Shown here piece by piece: positions 9,111 to 63,990 of a stretch of 64,000 nt of DNA. Each line of letters opens with the position of its first letter. Position 1 is the first letter of the stretch. Below the pieces are notes generated by a model that was not told the DNA's origin, did no database searches, and saw nothing but the letters and a program-made list of their open reading frames with translations. A program made the translations under genes and the position numbers. Source of the DNA: Squalus acanthias (Eukaryota); NCBI GenBank assembly GCA_030390025.1, contig CM059432.1:2542001-2606000 (forward strand). The letters run 5' to 3'.

Positions 9111-11708
9111 CAGAGGCTCTCAAACTTCTTTCTCAAATGGATTAGTAATCACGGACCCCCATCTAAAATTTAATTCCAACACTATATATAATATATTTGG
9201 AAGCTGATATTTCCCTACCCACACAGCTGCCGTGGTAGCCAAATTCTCTCTCTATTTTATTTTCCCGCTGATCAGGCACACAGGAGAGGGGGCGCGGCCA
9301 TGTTCAAACTGGCCGCACGTGACCAGATATTACTGCTCGGAATGGTTCGTTGACAAGACGTCGTGCGGCGATTAGAAGAGGATCACGCCAATCATTAGCA
9401 GCACGCTGGCGAGGGATTGGAAATTCTCGCGCGCAACTGCGATGATGGCTGAAAGTGCAGCGTTCAGTACACCAGCACAGACTGTGTGTGGGGTTCAGTA
9501 CACCAGCACAGACTGTGTGTGGGGTTCAGTACACCAGCACAGGGCTGTGTGCAGGGTTCAGTACACCAGCACAGGGCTGTGCGCAGAGTTCAGTACACCA
9601 GCACAGGGCTGTGTGCGGGGTTCAGTACACCAGCACTGGGCTGTGTGCAGGGTTCAGTACACCAGCACAGACTGTGTGCAGGGTTCAGTACACCAGCACA
9701 GGGCTGTGTGTGCGCAGGGTTCAGTACACCAGCACAGGGCTGTGTGCAGAGTTCAGTACACCAGCACAGGGCTGTGTGTGGGGTTCAGTACACCAGCACA
9801 GGGCTGTGTGTGGGGTTCAGTACACCAGCACAGGGCTGTGCGTGCAGGGTTCAGTACACCAGCACAGGGCTGTGTGTGTGTGAGGTTCAGTACACCAGCA
9901 CAGGGCTGTGTGTGTGTGGGGTTCAGTACACCAGCACAGGGCTGTGTGTGTGCGGGGTTCAGTACACCAGCACAGGGCTGTGTGTGTGCAGGGTTCAGTA
10001 CACCAGCACAGGGCTGTGTGTGTGCAGGGTTCAGTACACCAGCACAGGGCTGTGTGTGTGCAGGGTTCAGTACACCAGCACAGGGCTGTGTGCGGGGTTC
10101 AGTACACCAGCACAGGGCTGTGTGTGGGGTTCAGTACACCAGCACAGGGCTGTGTGTGCAGGGTTCAGTACACCAGCACAGGGCTGTGTGTGTGTGAGGT
10201 TCAGTACACCAGCACAGGGCTGTGTGTGCGCGGGGTTCAGTACACCAGCACAGGGCTGTGTGCAGGGTTCAGTACACCAGCACAGGGCTGTGTGTGCAGG
10301 GTTCAGTACACCAGCACAGGGCTGTGTGTGGGGTTCAGTACACCAGCACAGGGCTGTGTGTGTGCGCAGGGTTCAGTACACCAGCACAGGGCTGTGTGTG
10401 TGTGAGGTTCAGTACACCAGCACAGGGCTGTGTGTGTGCGGGGTTCAGTACACCAGCACAGGGCTGTGTGTGGGGTTCAGTACACCAGCACAGGGCTGTG
10501 TGTGTGTGAGGTTCAGTACACCAGCACAGGGCTGTGTGTGTGTGAGGTTCAGTACACCAGCACAGGGCTGTGTGTGTGCAGGGTTCAGTACACCAGCACA
10601 GGGCTGTGTGTGGGGTTCAGTACACCAGCACAGGGCTGTGTGTGTGTGGGGTTCAGTTCACCAGCACAGGGCTGTGTGTGTGGGGTTCAGTACACCAGCA
10701 CAGGGCTGTGTGTGTGCAGGGTTCAGTACACCAGCACAGGGCTGTGTGTGGGGTTCAGTACACCAGCACAGGGCTGTGTGTGTGTGGGGTTCAGTACACC
10801 AGCACAGGGCTGTGTGTGTGTGGGGTTCAGTACACCAGCACAGGGCTGTGTGTGTGTGGGGTTCAGTACACCAGCACAGGGCTGTGTGTGTGTGGGGTTC
10901 AGTACACCAGCACAGGGCTGTGTGTGTGTGGGGTTCAGTACACCAGCACAGGGCTGTGTGTGTGTGGGGTTCAGTACACCAGCACAGGGCTGTGTGTGTG
11001 TGGGGTTCAGTACACCAGCACAGGGCTGTGTGTGTGTGGGGTTCAGTACACCAGCACAGGGCTGTGTGTGTGGGGTTCAGTTCACCAGCACAGGGCTGTG
11101 TGTGTGTGGGGTTCAGTACACCAACACAGGGCTGTGTGTGTGTGGGGTTCAGTACACCAACACAGGGCTGTGTGTGGGGTTCAGTTCACCAGCACAGGGC
11201 TGTGTGTGGGGTTCAGTACACCAGCACAGGGCTGTGTATGCAGGGTTCAGTACACCAGCACAGGGCTGTGTGCGGGGTTCAGTACACCAGCACAGGGCTG
11301 TGTGCGGGGTTCAGTACACCAGCACAGGGCTGTGTGTGTGCAGGGTTCAGTACACCAGCACAGGGCTGTGTGTGTGTGAGGTTCAGTACACCAGCACAGG
11401 GCTGTGTGTGTGTGCGGGGTTCAGTACACCAGCACAGGGCTGTGTGTGTGTGGGGTTCAGTACACCAGCACAGGGCTGTGTGTGGGGTTCAGTACACCAG
11501 CACAGGGCTGTGTGTGGGGTTCAGTACACCAGCACGGACTGTGTGTGTGAGGTTCAGTACACCAACACAGGGCTGTGTGCAGAGTTCAGTACACCAGCAC
11601 AGGGCTGTGTGTGCAGGGTTCAGTACACCAGCACAGGGCTGTGTGTGTGCGGGGTTCAGTACACCACCCCGTGGAATGTCTCCGCTGACCCAGGTTTGAG
11701 AACCACTG
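9111..11708. mobile_element. Non-autonomous hAT (Charlie-type) element containing a minisatellite
   Basis: TIRs CAGAGGCTCTCAAAC / GTTTGAGAACCACTG. Flanks GTCTCGAG / GTCCAGAG match at 6 of 8 and resemble NTCTAGAN. Subterminal GGACCCC-like motifs. Confidence 0.7.
9455..11666. repeat. Minisatellite, roughly 60-65 units of about 31-38 bp
   Basis: Near-invariant GTTCAGTACACCAGCACAGGGCT followed by variable (GT)n and CAGG/CGGG/GGG/GAG. Confidence 0.97.
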
Positions 11709-12175: not shown

Positions 12176-12702
12176 AACACCACCCCCGCTTCCCCCGGCA
12201 CCCCACCATCCATGAAATCTCCTGGGAGAGGCATTCAAAAAAAAGAGAAAAAACCCAGGGCAAAAAATATACCTCGGGAAAATTCCTCCCCAACCCACTC
12301 AGCTGATCCAAAGCAGTCTGGGAGATCAGAGAGATGGTGTGCTATCTATAACGGATGGCTACTTGAATAGGCACCTGTGGACCATCAGTGGCCCCAGCAC
12401 GAGTCACCGCCTTCAGGAGGAGAACATTAGAAAAAATAAGAAATAATGTGTCGCACCTACCAGGCTGATTGGAAACATGGAAACTGGGGGGAAAAAAAAA
12501 GAGGATTGAGAACCTTTTACAGTCTATTTAGAAAATCCAGTGGGGAAATGAGAATAAAAATATATATTTTATTAAATCGCAGCGAGTTGTGATCTGGAAC
12601 ACGCTGCCTGAAAGGGCGGTGGTAGCAGATTCAATAGTAACTTTCAAAAGGGAATTGGAAAATTTTGCAGGACTACGGGGAAAGGGCAGGGGGCAGTGGG
12701 AC

Positions 12703-12916
12703 TAATACAAAAGCAAAAATACCGTGGCTGCTGGAAATCTGTAATAAAAACAGAAAATGCTGTAAACGCTCAGCGGGTCAGGCGGCCTCTGCGGAGAGAG
12801 AAACAGAATCAACGTTTCAGGTCGGTGGCCTTTGCGTTAACTCTGTTTCTCCCTCGCTCCACAGACGCTGCCTGACCCGCTGAGTGTTTCCAGCAATTTT
12901 CTGTTTTTATTTTTAA
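12703..12916. mobile_element. Fold-back Penelope-like fragment (family 1) inserted in a CR1 tail
   Basis: Inverted arms of the family-1 tail (CCACAGACGCTGCCTGACCCGCTGAG). Flanking direct repeat GGGCAGTGGGAC at 12691-702 and 12917-28. Confidence 0.7.
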
Positions 12917-13050
12917 GGGCAGTGGGACCAATTGGGGAGCTCTTGCAAAGAGTTGGGCACACAGGCACGATGGGCCGAACGGCCTGCTTTTAATGCTGTA
13001 CGATCCCACTTACCATCGAACACCAGCATCGGATTTGGGTTTTTAAACAT

Positions 13051-16153: not shown

Positions 16154-16521
16154 TCAGATGTGACTCAGTGGGCAGCACCCTCGCCTCTGAGTCAGAAGGT
16201 TGTGGGTTCAAGTCCCACTCCAGAGACTTGAGCACAAGAAGCTAGGCTGACACTCCAGCACAGTGCTGAGGGAGCGCCGCACTGTCGGAGGGGCAGTGCT
16301 GAGGGAGCGCCGCACTGTCGGAGGGGCAGTGCTGAGGGAGCGCCGCACTGTCGGAGGGGCAGTGCTGAGGGAGCGCCGCACTGTCGGAGGGGCAGTGCTG
16401 AGGGAGCGCCGCACTGTCGGAGGGGCAGTGCTGAGGGAGCGCCGCACTGTCGGAGGGGCAGTGCTGAGGGAGCGCCGCACTGTCGGAGCGGCAGTGCTGA
16501 GGGAGCGCCGCACTGTCGGAT
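16154..16521 (+). mobile_element. 3'-truncated DeuSINE whose body is about 8 tandem 33-bp units
   Basis: tRNA head followed by (CAGTGCTGAGGGAGCGCCGCACTGTCGGAGGGG)n at 16261-16520. Confidence 0.85.
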
Positions 16522-16677
16522 GACCACAAATGATTCTTTGCTGACCTGCCTTGTTTTTCTGGTATTCGCCACCTAGAGTTCTGTACTGTGGATGTGTATG
16601 CTTCTTAAATTTGAAAGTAGGCGATCACTAAAATAAAGACCAACTGTACATATTTAGACAATAACCCTGCAGTCACC

Positions 16678-41232: not shown

Positions 41233-42000
41233 CCCTTTCCCCGTAGCCCTGAAAAAAATTTTCCTTCAGGTACTTATCCAACTCCCTTTTGAAAGCCACG
41301 ATTGAGTCTGCCTCCACCACCCTTTCAGGCAATGCATTCCAGATCCTAACCACTCGCTGCGTAAAAAAGTTTTTCCTCATGTCGCCTTTGGTTCTTTTGC
41401 CAATCACCTTAAATCTGTGTCCTGTTTCTCGACCCTTCCGCCAATGGGAACAGTTTCCCTCTATCTACTCTGTCCAGACCCCTCATGATTTTGAACACCT
41501 CTATCAAATCTCCTCTCAACCTTCTCTGCTCCAAGGGGAACAACCCCAGCTTCTCCAGTCTATCCACGCAACTGAAGTCCCTCATCCTTGGAATCATTCT
41601 TGTAAATCTTTTCTGCACCCTCTCTAAGGCCTTCACATCCTTCCTAAAGTGAGGTGCCCAGAATTGGACACAATACTCCAGTTGAGGCCGAACCAGTGTT
41701 TTATACAGGTTCATCATCATTTCCATGCTTTTGTACTCCATGCCTCTATTCATGAAGCGGAGATGCCGGTGTTGGACTGGGGTGGACAAAAGTGAGAAGT
41801 CGCACAACACCAGGTTATAGTCCAACAGTTTTATTTGAAATCACAAGCTTTCGGAGCAGCTGCTCTTTCGTCAGGTGAAGTGAAGGAGCAGCGCTCCGAA
41901 AGCTTGTGATTTCAAATAAAACTGTTGGACTATAACCTGGTGTTGTGCGACTTCTCACTTCTATTCATGAAGCCCAGGATCCCGTAAGCTCTTTTAACTG
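41233..42000 (-). mobile_element. CR1 3' fragment interrupted by a Penelope-like fold-back element
   Basis: LYKTLVRPQLEYCVQFWAP...[14 protein letters not shown]. Confidence 0.85.
41758..41960. mobile_element. Fold-back short Penelope-like element (family 2) with a hammerhead at 41841-41878 (minus strand)
   Basis: Inverted arms of about 80 bp (41790-41870 and 41882-41960). Direct repeat CTATTCATGAAG at 41746-57 and 41961-72. Confidence 0.75.
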
Positions 42001-42350
42001 CTTTCTCAACCTTTTGACTACACTTCAAAAAGTACTTGATTGGCTGTAAAGCGACTTGGGATGTCCTGAGGTTGTGAAAGGTGCGACAGAAATGCAAGTT
42101 CATCCTTTCTTCAGTTCACTTGAAAATTTTAAGCTGCCATTGTCATCAGTAACCCGAGTCGGTGTGACCAACAGTTATCCATTTTAGACGTGCTCTTGAT
42201 ATTCTCTCTCAGGTTCTGCTCAGTGGTTTCCCCTGTAAGGGGATTCCACATCTGCTGGAATCAAAAGTTTACCTTTACTGTCAGAGATCGGGTCAGGCAA
42301 CAACAGAGCGTTCCTGGGAGGCGGAACAAGAGAACGCCCTAGTCATATCA

Positions 42351-42709
42351 GCAGCTGTTGATGATTCTGTTATTCCCATTGACACCTCCGCTAGAACCAT
42401 CCTTTGTTTCTTTACTTGTTCCATTACCATCTCCTGTCGCCTTGCACCATCATCCCTTTTGTCATTTAATCTTTCCTGCCTTCCACCCGATCACAGACCT
42501 TCCCTTTGTTCATTCCTCCCGCCTTTCCCTGCCCCTGCACTTGCTTAAAAACCTGTTACATCTCTAACTTTTTCCAGTTCTGACAAAGGGTCATCGACCT
42601 GAAACATTAACTCTGTTTCTCTCTCCACAGATGTTGCCTGACCTGCTGAGTATTTCCAGCATTTTCTGTTTCTATTTCAGATTTCCAGCATCTGCAGTAT
42701 TTTGCTTTT
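42351..42709 (+). mobile_element. Short Penelope-like element (family 1), degenerate hammerhead at 42576-42612
   Basis: 15-bp direct repeat GCCCTAGTCATATCA at 42336-50 and 42710-24. Same body as 32950-33216. Confidence 0.75.
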
Positions 42710-42830
42710 GCCCTAGTCATATCAACAGGGAACTGAGTTTGGATGATCAGCCATGATCTCATTGAATGGCGGAGCAGGCTCGAGGGGCTGAATGGCCGAC
42801 TCCTGCTCCTATCTTCTATGTTTCTATGTA

Positions 42831-45640: not shown

Positions 45641-46032
45641 TGTCGTAAGAATGAGCCTTACGCGTGGTGAACTTAAAGTAAGCTTTAATCAACTAAAAAG
45701 GTGCTACATACAAAAGAGGTTGTGGTAACACAATACAGCTTCCTGTGACTCGAACTTTATTGCATCACTTCCTGTGATTAGTCCAGGATAAATACTGGAC
45801 TGATCAGTTGGATCCGGGAGAGGTAGAGTAAGACCTCTTTTGTATGTAGCACCTTTTTTAGTTGATTAAAGCTTACTTTAAGTTCACCACGTGTAAGGCT
45901 CATTCTTACGACAGAGGTCTTACTCTATGCCTCTCCAGGATCCAACTGATCAGTCCAGTATTTATCCTGGACTAATCACAGGAAGTGATGCAATAAAGTT
46001 CGAGTCACAGGAAGCTGTATTGTGTTACCACA
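45641..46032 (-). mobile_element. Solo LTR-like element (194 bp) split by a copy of itself
   Basis: TGT...ACA termini, TSD GCAGG at 45636-40 and 46033-37. Confidence 0.8.
45721..45913 (+). mobile_element. Solo LTR-like element (193 bp), inner copy
   Basis: TGTGGTAA...TTACGACA, TSD GAGGT at 45716-20 and 45914-18, GATAAATA and ATTAAA signals. Confidence 0.82.
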
Positions 46033-46981: not shown

Positions 46982-49114
46982 CTAAAGCAGGACAGAGAAG
47001 AGCAAAAGTTAATCGAAAACTCAAGAATCGCTCCTGGTTAGCTCTCACTTTCACACTTAAGTGCAAGTAGTTACGGTCCTCAACACTCACACCGTCCCCA
47101 CTTATTCCGCACAAGCACCCACATTGGGCAAGTGCCGCAGACCACTTGTCATAGGGCTAAAAAGGTTATGAGGGCAGGTTGCACAGACTGGGCTCGTATT
47201 CCCTCGATTATAGCAGATTAAGGGGCGATCTAATTGAGGTGTTTAAGATGATTAAACAAGTTGATAGGGTAGATAGGGAGAAACTATTTCCTCTGGTGGG
47301 GGGAGTCCAGAACAAGTGGGCATAACCTTAAAACTAGAGCCAGGCCGTTCAGGGTCAATGTCTCTCCCCCAAAAAGCTGTTGAGGCTGGGGGGGTCAATT
47401 GATAATTTAAAAACTTGATAGATTTTTGTTGGTTAAGGGTATCAAGGATATGGAACCAAGGCGGGTAGATGGAGTTCAGATACAGATCAGCCATGATCTC
47501 ATTGAATGGCGAAACAAGCTAGAGGGGCTGAATGGCCTCCTCCTGTTCCTATGTCATTTACATAGACGTCAATTACAAGGGCACCGCTTAAACACAGGAA
47601 CAGGAGGAGGCCATTCAGCCCCTCGAGCCTGTTCCGCCATTCAGTGAGATCGTGGCTGATCTGCGACCTAACTCCATATACCCGTCTTTGGCCCATATCC
47701 CTTAATACCTTTGGTTAACAAAAAACTATCAATCTCAGATTTAAAATCAACAATTGATCTAGCATCGATTGCCGTTTGCGGAAGAGAGTTCCAAACTTCC
47801 ACCACCCTTTGTGTGTAGAAGTGTTTCCTAACTTCACTCCTGAAAGGCCTGGCAGTTGTTTTGCGCTTCCTCCTGTGACCCCGAGACCTCCTGCCGTTGC
47901 CGCGTGCCCTCACTGAGCGGGACACCTTCCGGCCCCGTTTTAAAATTACCGGGACAGTCTGACTGCCTCTTAAACGCATCCGGCTCTTGAACCTCCAGCC
48001 CAAGCTGCCCAGGAAATGCGAACGGTGAGATTTCAAAATCCTTGTTACCGTCATAAAATCTCTCTACCATCAATTTCCTATTTGGTGTGTCTGTTGTCAT
48101 TTAGGTTTTGATGTAACAGCACAGTAAATGCATACAGAACACGAAGTGGAGAGGCGGGGTGGGGGCAGTGTAGAAAGAAAGACTTGCATCAAAACAACTT
48201 CATAATTTAAACGCAGTGTTCCAGATGGGGTCTGACCAAGGCTCTGTCCAACTGAAGCAACACAACTTATATTTATATAGTGCCTTGAACTAATAAAACG
48301 TCCCAAGGCGCTTCACAGGAGTGTTATCAAAAAAAAACTAAATTTGACACCGAGCCACATAAGAAGATAGTAGGACAGGTGATCAAAAGCTTGGTCAAAG
48401 AGGTCGGTTTTAAGGAGTGCCTTAAAAGGAGGAGAGAGAGGTGGAGAGGTTTAGGGAGGGAATTCCAGAGCTTAGGGCCCAGGCAGCTGAAGGCACGGCC
48501 GCCAATGGTGGAGCGATTATAATTGGGGATGTTCAAAAAGCCAGAATAGGCAGAGCTTCTGTACTCCACATTTATACAAAATGTTTATAAAGAAATATTG
48601 GTGGGCAAAAGAACCAGAGGGGAGAGGAGAGAATTAATTTTTACACAACGAGTTGTCATGATGTGGAATGCACTGCTGAAAGGGTGGTGGAAGCAAATAG
48701 CAACTTTTAAAAGGGGAATTGGGCAAGTGCTTGTCCCCTGACTCCGCATTCTCTGATCGGATTCATTCGTCTATTAGCTGGCACCTTATCTGAGGCTTCT
48801 TGGAAATCTAGACATATTACATCTACTGCATTACCCTCGTCTACTCTCTCTCTGTTACCTCTTCAAGAATTCAATGAGGTTGGTCAAGCAAGACTTTCCC
48901 TTTTGAAATCCATGTTGACTACTCATTATTATATTTTTGGTTTCGAGTTGTTTTTCCATTTTCTCCTTTAGTAGGGATTCCATTATTTTTCCTACCACCG
49001 ATGTTAAGCTGACTGGTCTGTAATTCCCTGGACATGTTCTATCTCCGTATAACGTTAACTATCCGCCAATCCTTTGGCACTACACCTTTTTCGAATGAAT
49101 TATTAAATGTGTAA

Positions 49115-50505: not shown

Positions 50506-50590
50506 AGCCGGTAAGAGTGACTGCATATTCTGATTGGAATCCGCTATTGTTGCTAGGTAGACCAGATTTCTATGAAGCATTTGTTGGTAC
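50506..50590 (-). CDS. SS18: SS18 coding exon (human exon 3 equivalent, SNH/SSXT domain), 85 nt
   Basis: cag|G TAC CAA CAA ATG...TTA CCG GCT|gtaag. Encodes YQQMLHRNLVYLATIADSNQNMQSLLPA. Confidence 0.97.
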
Positions 50591-50779: not shown

Positions 50780-51550
50780 GGCCCAAATATTCGGCCGAAT
50801 ACGGGAGAGTACGCACTGTGTACTCACCCGTATTCGTTCCCAAAGTGCTGGTTTCCTGCATGCACTGCGCATGCGCGGGAAACCGGCACTTCCGGTATGG
50901 CGAAGGGGGCGGTTCCTAGGTGAACCACATGCGCACTAGAGGCTGCACGCACGCAGCACACTTAGGTTTTTTTCCCAGGTTTGAACGCGAAGGTAAGTGT
51001 TGAAGATTTTACACAAGTAAAAAGGAGGCGCAAGACCCCTTTTGAACAAGGTAAGTAGTTAATTAAGTATTATTTTAAATTTTTTTCAACAGGTTTATCT
51101 TTTTTTTTTAGAGGCTTTAAAGAAAGGTAAGTTTATTTTTATAACTTTTAAAAAGAATTTAAATTTTTTCAAAAATTTTAATTTTTGTTTAAAGTGGTTA
51201 ATTTATTTAACTATATAGTTATTTTATTAATGTGATGGTTTTTAAGAAAAATTATTTGTGGTTTAGCTGTTCTTTTGGGGCCGATTTCAATTCATAGATT
51301 TGACAGGTCTCCTGTCAAATCTATGAATGAAAGATGGTCTGCTGCCATTGGCTCTCCATGGCCCACGTGATCCCAGGAGTCGCATCGCACTAACTGCGCC
51401 TCTGGGACACGCGCACACTGCGCGCCGGCACTAGGGAGAGGCCCAGGACCCGAAGTTCCTGTGGGCCCAAAACACAACGGCAGGTGCGGTAGGTAAGAGC
51501 GCGCGCGATCCTTACCCCCGCGGCAAGCCGGCCACCCGAATTTCTAGGCC
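50780..51550. mobile_element. PIF/Harbinger-type MITE, copy 2 (771 bp)
   Basis: TIR GGCCCAAATATTCGG / CCGAATTTCTAGGCC, TSD ATT, colinear with 39275-40017. Confidence 0.75.
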
Positions 51551-52679: not shown

Positions 52680-53705
52680 AGGAGCAGGAGTAGGCCATAG
52701 GGCCCCTTGAGCCGTTCAATAAGATCATGGCTGATCATCGACCTCAACTCCACTTTCCCGCCCGATTCCCCATATCTCTTGATTCCCCTAGAGTCCAAAA
52801 ATCTATCGATCTCAGGCTTGAATATACTCAAAGACTCAGCATTCACAGTCCTCTGGGGCAGAGAATTCCAAAGATTCACCACTCTCTGAGTGAAGAAATT
52901 TCTCCTCATCTCAGTCTTAAATGGCCGACCCCTTATCCTGAGACTACGACCCCTAGTTCTAGACTCTCCAGCCAGGGGAATCCCTCAGCATCTACCCTGT
53001 CAATCCCGCTCAGAATCTTATGTTTCAATGAGATCAACTCTCATTCTTCTAAACTCCAGAGAGTTTAGGCCCAATCTACTCAATCTCTCCTCATAGGACA
53101 GCCCTCTCATCCCAGGGATCAATCTAGTGAACCTTCGTTGCACCCCTTCCAAGGCAAGTATATCCTTCCTTAGATAAGGAGACCAAAACTGTGCACAGTA
53201 CTCCAGGTGTGGTCTCACCTGACAAAGGAGCAGCGCTCCAAAAGCTTGTGATTTCAAATAAAACTGTTGGACTATAACCGGGTGTTGTGCGACTTCTCAC
53301 ATTTGTCCACCCCAGTCCAACACCGGCATCTCCGCATCATCACCAAGGCCCTGTACAATTGTAGCAAGACTTCCTTACTCTTGTACTCCAACCCTCTTGC
53401 AATAAAGGCCAATATGCCATCTGCCTTCCTAATTGCTTGCTGTACCTGCTTGCTAACCCTGTGTTCCTGTACGAGGACACCTACATCTCTCTGAACACCA
53501 ACATTTAATAGTTCACTATTTTAAAAATATGCTGTTTTTCTATTCCTACCAAAGTGAATAACCTCACATTTCCCTACATTATATTCCATCTTCCACCTTA
53601 CTGCCCACTCACTGAGTCTATCTATATCCCTTTGCAGACTCTGTGTTCTCCTCACAGCTTACTGTCCCACCCAGCTTTGTATCGTCAGCAAACCTGGATA
53701 CATTG
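52680..53705 (-). mobile_element. CR1 3' part with a family-2 Penelope-like insert (53220-53339)
   Basis: [19 protein letters not shown]. The insert is flanked by a TCACC duplication (53215-19, 53340-44). Confidence 0.8.
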
Positions 53706-61535: not shown

Positions 61536-62082
61536 CTCTGTTGTTCTTCAAAATAGTGCCATGGGATCTTTATACGTCCACCTGAGAGAACAGATGGGGC
61601 CTTAGATTAACTTCTCATCCGACAGTGCGGCACTCCCTTAGTACTGCCCCTCCGAAGGGGCAGCACTCGCTCAGTATTGCCCCTCCGACAGTGCAGCTCG
61701 CTCTCAGTACTGCCCCTCCGACAGTGCTGCGCTCCCTCAGTACGGCCCCTCCGACAGTGCAGCACTCCCTCAGTACTGTCCCTCCGACAGTGCGGAGCTC
61801 CTCAGTACTGTCCCTCCGACAGTGCAGCTCGCTCTCAGTACTGCCCCTCCGACAGTGCAGCACTCCCTCAGTACTGCCCCTCCGACAGTGCGGCCCTTCC
61901 TCAGTACTGCCCCTCCGACAGTGCGGCCCTTCCTCAGTACTGCACCTCCCACAGTGCGGCGCTCCCTCAGTACTGCACTGGGAGTGTCAGCCTGGATTTC
62001 TGTCCTCAAGTTTCTGGCATGGGACTTGAACCCATGACCTTTTGACTCAGAGGCGAAAATGCTGCCCACCGAGTCACGGTTT
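61536..62082 (-). mobile_element. DeuSINE with about 11 diverged 33-bp units
   Basis: Array at about 61620-61975, head at about 62010-62082. Confidence 0.8.
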
Positions 62083-62725: not shown

Positions 62726-63530
62726 CTTGCATTTCTATAGCGCCTTCTACGACCACCGGACGTCCCAAAGCGCTTTACAGCCAATGAAGTACTTTTGAAG
62801 TGTAGTCACTGTTGTAATGTAGGAAACGCGGCAGCCAATTTGCGCACAGCAAGCTCCCACAAACAGCAATGTGATAATGGCCAGATCATCTGTTTTTTAG
62901 TGATATTGATTGAGGGATAAATATTGGCCCAGGACACCGGGGAGAACTCCCCTGCTCTTCTTCGAAATAGTGCCGTGTACGTCCACTTGAGAGAGCAAAC
63001 GGGGCCTTGGTTTTATGTCTCAGCCGAAAGACGGCACCTCTGACAGTGCAGCACTCCCTCAGCACTGCCCCTCCGACAGTGCAGCCCTCCCTCAGTACTG
63101 CCCCTCCGACAGTGCAGCACTCCCTCAGTACTGCCCCTCCGACAGTGCAGCACTCCCTCAGCACTGCCCCTCCGACAGTGCAGCACTCCCTCAGCACTGC
63201 CCCTCCGACAGTGCAGCACTCCCTCAGCACTGCCCCTCCGACAGTGCAGCACTCCCTCAGCACTGCCCCTCCGACAGTGCAGCACTCCCTCAGCACTGCC
63301 CCTCCGACAGTGCAGCACTCCCTCAGCACTGCCCCTCCGACAGTGCGGACCCTCCGACAGTGCAGCACTCCCTCAGCACTGCCCCTCTGACAGTGCAGCA
63401 CTCCCTCAGCACTGCCCCTCTGACAGTGCAGCACTCCCTCAGCACTGCCCCTCTGACAGTGCAGCACTCCCTCAGCACTGCCCCTCTGACAGTGCAGCAC
63501 TCCCTCAGTACTGGCACCGGGGGAGTGTCG
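62726..63530 (-). mobile_element. DeuSINE with about 14 tandem 33-bp units
   Basis: Array (GACAGTGCAGCACTCCCTCAGCACTGCCCCTCC)n at about 63041-63512. Confidence 0.85.
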
Positions 63531-63990
63531 GCCAGAATGATTCCCGGACTCCAAGGGTTAAGTTATGAGGAGAGATTACACAAACTAGGGATGTATTCCC
63601 TAGAATTTAGAAGGTTAAGGGGTGATCTGATCGAAGTTTTCAGGATATTCAGGGGAACAGATAGGGTAGAGAGAGAGAAACTATTTCCGCTGGTTTGGGA
63701 TTCTAGGACTAGGGGGCATAGTCTAAAAATTAGAGCCAGACCTTTCAGGAGTGAAATTAGGAAACACTTCTACACACAAAGGGTGGTAAAAGTTTGGAAC
63801 TCTTCCGCAAACGGCAATTGATGTTATATCAATTGTTAATTTTAAATGAGATTGATAGATTTCTGTTAACCAAAGGCATTAAGGGATATGGGCAAAGACG
63901 GGTATGTGGAGTTAGGTCGCAGATCAGCCATGATCTCATTGAATGGCAGAACAGGCTGGAGGGGCTGAATGGCCTCCTCCTGTTCCTATG
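63531..63990 (+). mobile_element. CR1 3' fragment
   Basis: [19 protein letters not shown]...RKHFYTQRVVKVWNS plus tail. Confidence 0.85.

What the first reader, a model, noticed from the sequence alone, without database searches (positions are those of the whole stretch)
41746..41972. Second hammerhead family forming an ~80-bp near-perfect fold-back that pivots on the ribozyme
Seen: 41790-41870 and 41882-41960 are inverted copies, bounded by a 12-14-bp direct repeat (CTATTCATGAAG) in a CR1. The minus strand at 41841-41878 reads TCAC CTGACGA A AGAGCAGCTGCTCC GAAA GC TT GTGA. This is the family-1 architecture with different stems (stem I TCAC/GTGA, stem III palindrome AGCT), so structure rather than sequence is conserved between the families. 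The second arm restarts inside the catalytic core. This motif is in the SS18 sense orientation, so it is transcribed in intron 4, although the fold-back would compete with ribozyme folding. Established: Penelope-like insertions often carry inverted partial pLTRs.
Basis: partly seen in the sequence, partly recalled or inferred. Interest (0 to 1): 0.72.

Follow-up and report, generated by a model that had tools for sequence, protein, structure and literature searches.

The report
Penelope fold-back joined at RNA start
This 200-base hairpin in an SS18-type intron is one short copy of a very abundant Penelope-like jumping gene, a known shape; its two arms meet just in front of a small self-cutting RNA motif, likely because the copied RNA begins there and not because the ribozyme cuts there, and the motif is predicted to be locked inactive in this copy.

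Summary
Arms 41791-41869 and 41882-41959 match at 77 of 79 bases. A 14-bp target duplication flanks them in a LINE remnant. A minimal type I hammerhead lies on the minus strand, the sense of the SS18-type host gene. Only one arm has the 32-39-nt tail. This is the published Penelope layout (pLTR plus tail, with an inverted truncated copy). The family is very abundant (12,446 contigs laid in one run). Similar junctions recur in 4 of 4 runs at 12 different offsets, so the pivot is recurrent but not fixed. It is not the cleavage site, which is 37 nt away. It sits at a 4-nt GAAG/CTTC overlap on an initiator-like motif, with a TATA-like box 30 nt upstream in longer copies (thin support). Most likely two cDNAs, primed from the two cut strands at the family's two 3' end sites, ran to the RNA's 5' end and joined. 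This copy's hammerhead has lost the G10.1-C11.1 pair and is predicted to be buried by 38.6 kcal/mol. Enrichment of pivots over other positions was not tested. This scan's notes report the same kind of insert many times, in this and other genomes.

The parts
41745..41758 (.). Target-site duplication, left copy (14 bp); holds an 8-bp palindrome at 41749-41756; its minus strand matches the element's last 7 bases at 6 of 7
41759..41790 (-). Penelope 'tail', on this arm only: 32 nt, or 39 with the 7 bases that overlap the duplication; AC-rich
   Evidence: family 3' loose ends pile at both tail boundaries
41791..41885 (-). Tailed (sense) arm of the pLTR, from the predicted RNA start region through the hammerhead to the tail boundary
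   Evidence: upstream bases match family loose ends
41841..41878 (-). Minimal type I hammerhead: helix I 41878-41875 with 41844-41841; core CUGACGA 41874-41868; bulged A 41867; A10.1-C11.1 mismatch 41866/41853; GAAA 41852-41849; palindromic AGCU; predicted cleavage between 41845 and 41844
   Evidence: definition from PMC4209133
41879..41885 (-). Junction: initiator-like CTTCACT of the element, predicted +1 A at 41881; 41882-41885 shared by both arms (4-nt microhomology)
   Evidence: loose ends; +1 is inferred
41882..41959 (+). Inverted, tail-less arm; starts at G8 of the core (no CUGA, so no ribozyme on this strand) and ends at the family's tail-less end site
41960..41973 (.). Target-site duplication, right copy
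41246..42014 (-). Host LINE remnant (ORF2 C-terminal part) interrupted by the insert
53215..53340 (+). Second copy of the family: tailed monomer in another LINE remnant; starts at helix I with a 5-nt overlap with the host; both core G8 and G12 read A; antisense to the host gene

Best explanation
This is a short insertion of a very abundant Penelope-like retroelement, made of one tailed arm and one inverted tail-less arm between 14-bp target duplications, and it was likely written as two cDNAs, one primed from each cut DNA strand, that ran to the predicted 5' end of the element RNA just before the hammerhead and were likely joined by a 4-base overlap. Shown: the anatomy; both arms read as antisense cDNA from the 3' end of each target strand; the arms end at the family's two common 3' end sites; similar junctions recur with scatter. 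Inferred: a staggered double cut with 14-nt overhangs at a palindromic site; priming at the tail end, perhaps helped by target-RNA pairing; priming of the other strand at the tail-less site; an RNA start at or near 41881; joining through GAAG/CTTC, which exists because the pyrimidine-rich start mirrors the purine-rich core. The ribozyme is a passenger at the front of the RNA, not the hinge. In the host pre-mRNA the inverted arm is made first and is predicted to bury the hammerhead in a 79-bp duplex, so the copy is likely inert apart from being a possible editing substrate.
For: Layout matches PMC3846280 (passages) and the PMC8557442 Fig. 2 legend. Family 3' loose ends in run X1: 141 contigs at 53340 (tail end), 38 + 18 at 53299/53300 (tail-less end), of 351 partly laid; X6: 127 + 23 and 31 + 17 of 241. 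The two focal arms end at these sites. The anole enzyme cuts and extends both strands and starts at two sites flanking the tail; hammerhead mutants do not change insertion (PMC11167929 part 2). Of 32 listed pieces, 30 run from 41863 or earlier across the junction, in 4 of 4 runs (3 organisms), at 12 net offsets from -8 to +5. A form 5 letters shorter is listed in all four runs (4, 2, 2 and 5 contigs; summed depth 8071 in X1); it fits the second CTTC repeat. Longer copies carry TATATA starting 30 nt before A41881 (X1 rows of 4 and 6 contigs); the same TATA-20 bp-TCACT layout is described for Adineta Pen2a. Target matches the element end at 6 of 7 (background 136 of 127,976 sites). An 8-bp palindrome occurs in 1,754 of 63,986 14-mers. 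Forcing the hammerhead helices costs 38.6 kcal/mol; helix I pair probability about 1e-27 against 0.06 without the inverted arm.
Against: The RNA start is not measured. The TATA-like letters lie beyond the median loose-end length (14 and 17), so they rest on a minority of 10 contigs, and the X6 row reads differently there. No extra cap-templated G is seen at the focal junction. The bridging pieces have fewer than the 31 letters on the short side that the tool asks for. The 71-bp reference can only detect pivots near the focal one, so enrichment over other positions is untested; one search listed only 2 strand-switch joints and is not a control. PMC11167929 found no difference in start site between strands and no primer-RNA homology, so one-sided tails and target pairing do not follow directly from it. 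The arms cannot be told from a snap-back copy: outside the two private changes they are identical. The palindrome is absent from the duplications of the 3 other hammerhead inserts checked (longest 0-4 bp). The family-1 fold-back at 12708-12912 pivots inside the core with no clear overlap. No reverse transcriptase ORF was linked to this family.
Confidence: 0.58

Rival explanations
1. Snap-back self-priming: one cDNA ran off the RNA's 5' end, its 3' GAAG folded onto its own CTTC (12-nt loop) and was extended into a hairpin, which was resolved at the tail boundary. This is close to the self-priming view in PMC3846280.
For: The same 4-nt overlap and short loop; arms identical at 77 of 79; junction scatter of only a few bases; PMC8557442 ascribes the tail to endonuclease resolution.
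Against: Needs a second precise event to stop the copied arm exactly at the tail-less site, which in vitro is a reverse-transcription start site on both strands. The monomer at 53215 shows the same kind of 5' overlap with host DNA, so the overlap does not require a hairpin.
Confidence: 0.22
2. The ribozyme sets the pivot: reverse transcriptase stalls at the folded hammerhead, or the template is a cleaved RNA, so arms stop at the core.
For: The inverted arm does begin at G8, just 5' of stem II. In the family-1 fold-back one arm stops at N7 and the other starts 4 nt before the cleavage site. Both strand-switch joints have one side at 53215 or 53227.
Against: The tailed arm passes the whole hammerhead; the cleavage site is 37 nt away; no listed loose-end row at 53247/53248, against 27, 25, 5 and 35 contigs that run through helix I in the four runs (284 rows not shown); the hammerhead fold is weak (z -0.5 to -2.0); mutants that kill cleavage do not alter insertion in vitro.
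Confidence: 0.13
3. A host-adopted element: a microRNA-like hairpin or an intronic ribozyme that acts on the SS18-type transcript.
For: Host-sense orientation; very stable hairpin; weak Rfam hits to plant miRNA models.
Against: All three Rfam hits are far below gathering score (86/249, 61/140, 48/142); the insert is one of a cloud of similar junctions; the G10.1-C11.1 pair is lost; the minimal form needs a dimer and the only other family copy in the window is antisense and core-mutated.
Confidence: 0.04
4. Assembly artefact (a read folding back on itself).
For: Long palindromes are error-prone; no listed piece carries the two private changes of the tailed arm.
Against: Exact 14-bp duplication of host sequence, tail on one arm only, empty sites in paralogues, similar junctions in 4 of 4 runs.
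Confidence: 0.03

Closest known systems
Endonuclease-positive Penelope-like insertion unit: pLTR with optional 30-40-bp tail, adjacent inverted 5'-truncated copy, target duplication (Adineta Pen2a, PMC3846280, passages; PMC8557442, passages including Fig. 2 legend)
   Same: Head-to-head arms, tail on one end only, duplication, overlap between direct and inverted arm, TATA-like box about 20 bp before TCACT in longer copies
   Different: No ORF and no second direct pLTR; 201 bp in all; duplication 14 bp against 8-10; arm overlap 4 nt against 15; promoter part not included in the insert
Poseidon element PAc of Anolis carolinensis (PMC11167929, parts 1-2 of 4 and passages)
   Same: Hammerhead near the front, AC-rich end 112-119 nt downstream of the core (PAc start site 111-118 bp into its ORF), two end sites flanking a tail
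   Different: No ORF start found at this hammerhead; PAc priming was non-homologous in vitro whereas this target resembles the element end; clade of this family not determined
Minimal type I hammerheads of metazoan PLEs (PMC4209133, parts 1-2 of 4)
   Same: Short helix I, bulged base after A9, palindromic helix III stub, several families per genome with different stems, motifs sometimes close together on opposite strands
   Different: This copy has A10.1-C11.1 in place of the conserved G-C and stem II is 4-5 bp; its partner arm lacks CUGA
Non-LTR retrozymes (bioRxiv 10.64898/2026.07.22.740005, parts 1-2 of 5)
   Same: Short non-coding, hammerhead-bearing, PLE-derived
   Different: Defined by head-to-tail tandems with a hammerhead in each unit; this is a head-to-head pair with one complete motif

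Membership tests
EN+ Penelope-like element insertion | ORF with PLE reverse transcriptase and GIY-YIG endonuclease | not testable with these tools
   The insert has no ORF of its own; no genome is held; DNA pattern scans found 0 loci in two collections
EN+ Penelope-like element insertion | Hammerhead motif in the pLTR | tested here: met
EN+ Penelope-like element insertion | Adjacent inverted 5'-truncated copy, head to head | tested here: met
EN+ Penelope-like element insertion | 30-40-bp tail on one end only | tested here: met
   32 nt (39 with overlap); two family end sites about 40 nt apart
EN+ Penelope-like element insertion | Target-site duplication | tested here: met
   14 bp exact; single in 4 of 4 paralogues aligned
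EN+ Penelope-like element insertion | Dispersed, many copies | tested here: met
   12,446, 6,976, 1,699 and 2,587 contigs laid in four runs, with unrelated flanks; depth is not a copy number
Minimal type I hammerhead | CUGANGA, GAAA and NUH in type I order with helix I | tested here: met
Minimal type I hammerhead | Bulged base between 9 and 10.1; palindromic 15.2-16.2 | tested here: met
   A41867; AGCU; self-dimer predicted at -32.7 kcal/mol, mostly through this copy's palindromic stem II
Minimal type I hammerhead | G10.1-C11.1 pair | tested here: not met
   A-C in this copy; G-C in the inverted arm, in copy 2 and in the family
Minimal type I hammerhead | Self-cleavage (as dimer) | not testable with these tools
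   Folding predicts burial in this copy
Non-LTR retrozyme | Two or more head-to-tail units each with a complete hammerhead | tested here: not met
microRNA precursor | Rfam family at gathering score | tested here: not met

The most novel reading that the evidence does not exclude
Penelope's long-unexplained inverted repeats are twin-primed products: a dimeric enzyme cuts both strands of a palindromic site that resembles the element's own tail end, copies the RNA from two fixed start points, and joins the cDNAs at the RNA's 5' end, which lies three bases before hammerhead helix I. The many shark fold-back junctions would then be a genome-wide record of the transcription start and of the insertion mechanism, with an uncleaved hammerhead as the first 40 bases of the template.
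Probability: 0.4. Interest if true: 0.55.

Novelty: new member of a known kind. Interest (0 to 1): 0.25.

Why it matters
The insert itself is ordinary. Its value is as a data point on an open question: how Penelope-like elements make head-to-head repeats and what their hammerhead does. PMC8557442 calls these features still undefined. If junctions mark the RNA start and not the cleavage site, the template is uncleaved RNA, as in the anole in vitro work, and very many natural junctions can test twin priming against snap-back. Such inserts also put perfect 80-bp duplexes into introns of conserved genes.

Tried and rejected
No whole genome is held, so breakpoints could not be mapped genome-wide. 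A 25-base family pattern found 0 matches in metagenome contigs and 0 in viral contigs. Rfam gave no hammerhead hit in the window; its 7 hits were miRNA models below gathering score, driven by hairpin shape. My first strict hammerhead scan missed the focal motif because of the A-C mismatch; a looser scan found 5 motifs, 3 of family 1 and 2 of family 2. Sequence search of earlier notes gave nothing. All 21 listed runs are contigs, none raw reads, so editing, small RNAs, strand and RNA ends were not testable; X16 is RNA only by guess. No listed piece carries the focal private changes (none starts before 41859), which could mean the allele is absent from those samples, but contigs show presence only, so I draw nothing from it. 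A count of exact 14-mers at 215-bp spacing (91) did not exclude tandem arrays and is not a usable control. Pairing of the second primer with RNA past the tail-less end (5 pairs with 2 wobbles) has a 3% background and is not counted as evidence. The 10-of-12 match between target and extended element end (8 of 127,976 sites) uses five letters from a low-agreement loose-end consensus (0.36) that may itself reflect target preference. Shared alleles between the arms are the family majority at all listed sites and do not separate one template from two. Literature: 5 searches. 'Twin priming' had 0 occurrences in the PLE papers listed; the one paper with 'Penelope', 'shark' and 'hammerhead ribozyme' (PMC6155905) was seen as a listing only. 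Subscription papers and Repbase/Dfam were not searchable, no supplements were read, and the family may well be catalogued.

Full report
Observation. The arms are 41791-41869 and 41882-41959 and differ at 2 of 79 positions, both in stem II of the left arm. The minus strand folds at -152.9 kcal/mol, z = -26 against 200 shuffles. An exact 14-bp repeat flanks the 201-bp insert. Four LINE paralogues that I picked from the window and aligned across the site all lack the insert and carry the equivalent bases once, so the repeat is a duplication of host DNA. The host stretch is the end of a LINE ORF2, 56% identical to a window ORF with an RVT_1 domain; 'CR1' is my recalled label. The host gene is on the minus strand: an SSXT domain exon at 50506-50589 and Q/P/G/M-rich exons at 46981-46828 and 36185-36015. 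The complete hammerhead is therefore in host sense. Exon numbering is recalled from the human gene.

The left arm continues for 32 nt (41759-41790) with no partner on the right. A second copy of the family at 53215-53340 carries the same extension. When that monomer was used as reference, 12,446, 6,976, 1,699 and 2,587 contigs were laid from four runs. Their 3' loose ends pile at two places about 40 nt apart: in X1, 141 contigs at 53340 and 56 at 53299/53300, of 351 partly laid. The focal arms end at these two places. This is the Penelope tail. Passages of PMC3846280 and PMC8557442 describe exactly this unit: a pLTR, an adjacent inverted 5'-truncated copy, a 30-40-bp tail at one end and a target duplication.

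The hammerhead. It has the minimal type I form defined in PMC4209133 (parts 1-2 of 4 read): short helix I, a bulged base after A9, and a palindromic stub of helix III that needs a dimer. That paper already reports several families per genome with covarying stems, and motifs close together on opposite strands. Family 1 in this window (33084, 42580, 59335) and family 2 are such a pair. The family-2 majority has the full core and the G10.1-C11.1 pair (loose ends). The focal copy has A-C there. The fold is no more stable than shuffles (z -0.54; the other three motifs -0.34 to -2.04). In the host transcript the inverted arm is made first. Forcing the hammerhead helices costs 38.6 kcal/mol, helix I pair probabilities fall from about 0.06 to 1e-27, and prefixes already pair with the arm by the time stem II emerges. 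These are predictions. The other family-2 copy is antisense and has A at both G8 and G12, so I found no partner in cis.

Where the pivot is. Upstream of helix I the family continues CTTCACT in all four runs, and these are the focal bases 41885-41879. So the tailed arm passes the whole hammerhead, and 41882-41885 can be read as either arm: a 4-nt overlap. The predicted cleavage site is 37 nt from 41881. No listed loose-end row falls at the cleavage position of the monomer, while 27, 25, 5 and 35 contigs run through helix I; 284 rows were not shown, so this is not a full count. After reading this scan's notes, which proposed that junctions mark the RNA start, I laid four runs on 41850-41920. Of 32 listed pieces, 30 cross the junction from 41863 or earlier, in all four runs and three organisms, at 12 net offsets from -8 to +5; I dropped the two that start at 41870 and 41881. 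A form 5 letters shorter is listed in each run and fits the second CTTC repeat. Limits: the short side of these pieces is under the tool's 31-letter rule, only 32 of 9,150 pieces were shown, and this reference sees only pivots near the focal one. Recurrence is shown; enrichment is not. Loose ends behind 41885 and 41887 (4 and 6 contigs in X1) give the longer element's upstream sequence, with TATATA starting 30 nt before A41881. PMC3846280 describes a TATA box 20 bp before an initiator-like TCACT in Pen2a. The support is thin: the TATA letters lie past the median loose-end length, and the X6 row differs. D. virilis Penelope has a TATA-less internal promoter (PMC2377424, passages), so the layout is not universal. 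The focal junction shows no extra cap-derived G.

Mechanism. Each target strand's 3' end is followed by antisense element sequence: the top strand from the tail end, the bottom strand from the tail-less end. That is the geometry of two target-primed events after a staggered double cut. PMC11167929 (parts 1-2 of 4 and passages) shows that the anole enzyme cuts and extends both strands, starts at two sites that flank the tail, and does not need hammerhead cleavage. It found no strand bias in start site and no primer homology, and the passages I read do not address inverted repeats. Here the target matches the element's last 7 bases at 6 (136 of 127,976 background sites) and holds an 8-bp palindrome (2.7% of 14-mers). 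One site cannot separate annealing from enzyme preference, and the three other hammerhead inserts checked have no such palindrome. I put twin priming with joining at the RNA start at 0.58, snap-back at 0.22, a ribozyme-set pivot at 0.13. The identity as a Penelope-type insertion I hold at about 0.9, although no RT ORF was linked. The best case for the ribozyme reading is the family-1 fold-back at 12708-12912, where one arm stops at N7 and the other starts 4 nt before the cleavage site.

Novelty. The shape and the motif are published. In five literature searches I saw no paper that maps these junctions to the RNA start or invokes twin priming for PLEs; only open-access text was searched and no supplements were read. 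The bioRxiv retrozyme paper (parts 1-2 of 5) defines retrozymes by head-to-tail units, which this is not. This scan's own unchecked notes report the same inserts and the same readings many times, in this genome (813 notes fit 'Penelope hammerhead') and in others; they are leads, not support. Verdict: a real, ordinary member of a known kind, with one testable mechanistic hint. Interest 0.25.

Noticed in passing
window 12692-12931: A family-1 fold-back of the same build: tail on one arm, near-exact duplication of about 15 bp, one arm stopping at N7 of the core and the other starting 4 nt before the predicted cleavage site, no clear overlap at the junction.
   Followed up: partly
window 42555-42580 (also 33084 and 59335 copies): In family 1 a branch-point-like CTAAC, a pyrimidine run and CAG end right at helix I. 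PMC4209133 notes that the D. virilis Penelope intron ends at helix I. Family 2 has an initiator-like motif there instead.
   Followed up: no
window 42336-42354 and 42710-42728: A family-1 insert of about 355 bp with a 19-bp duplication (1 mismatch) that contains TAGTCAT, resembling the centre of the focal target and the loose-end consensus past the family-2 tail.
   Followed up: partly
window 41854-41865: The extra base in this copy turns stem II into a perfect 12-bp palindrome, as a template switch between strands or arms would; the self-dimer predicted pairs through it.
   Followed up: partly
window 53215-53219 and 53340-53344: Copy 2 begins with a 5-nt overlap between helix I and the host LINE, so its duplication and its 5' microhomology cannot be told apart.
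   Followed up: partly
window 45641-46032: A nested inverted-repeat element of about 330 bp (87% self-complementary, with split arms) inside a LINE; no hammerhead core found by the scan; kind unknown.
   Followed up: no
window 47395-47757 and 51285-51332: Further fold-backs without a hammerhead: a head-to-head pair of LINE-like 3' ends around a 50-bp spacer, and a 48-bp near-perfect palindrome.
   Followed up: no
window 9400-11700, 16200-16600, 61600-62050, 63000-63560: Tandem arrays of about 20-24-bp units that give long open frames in several phases.
   Followed up: no
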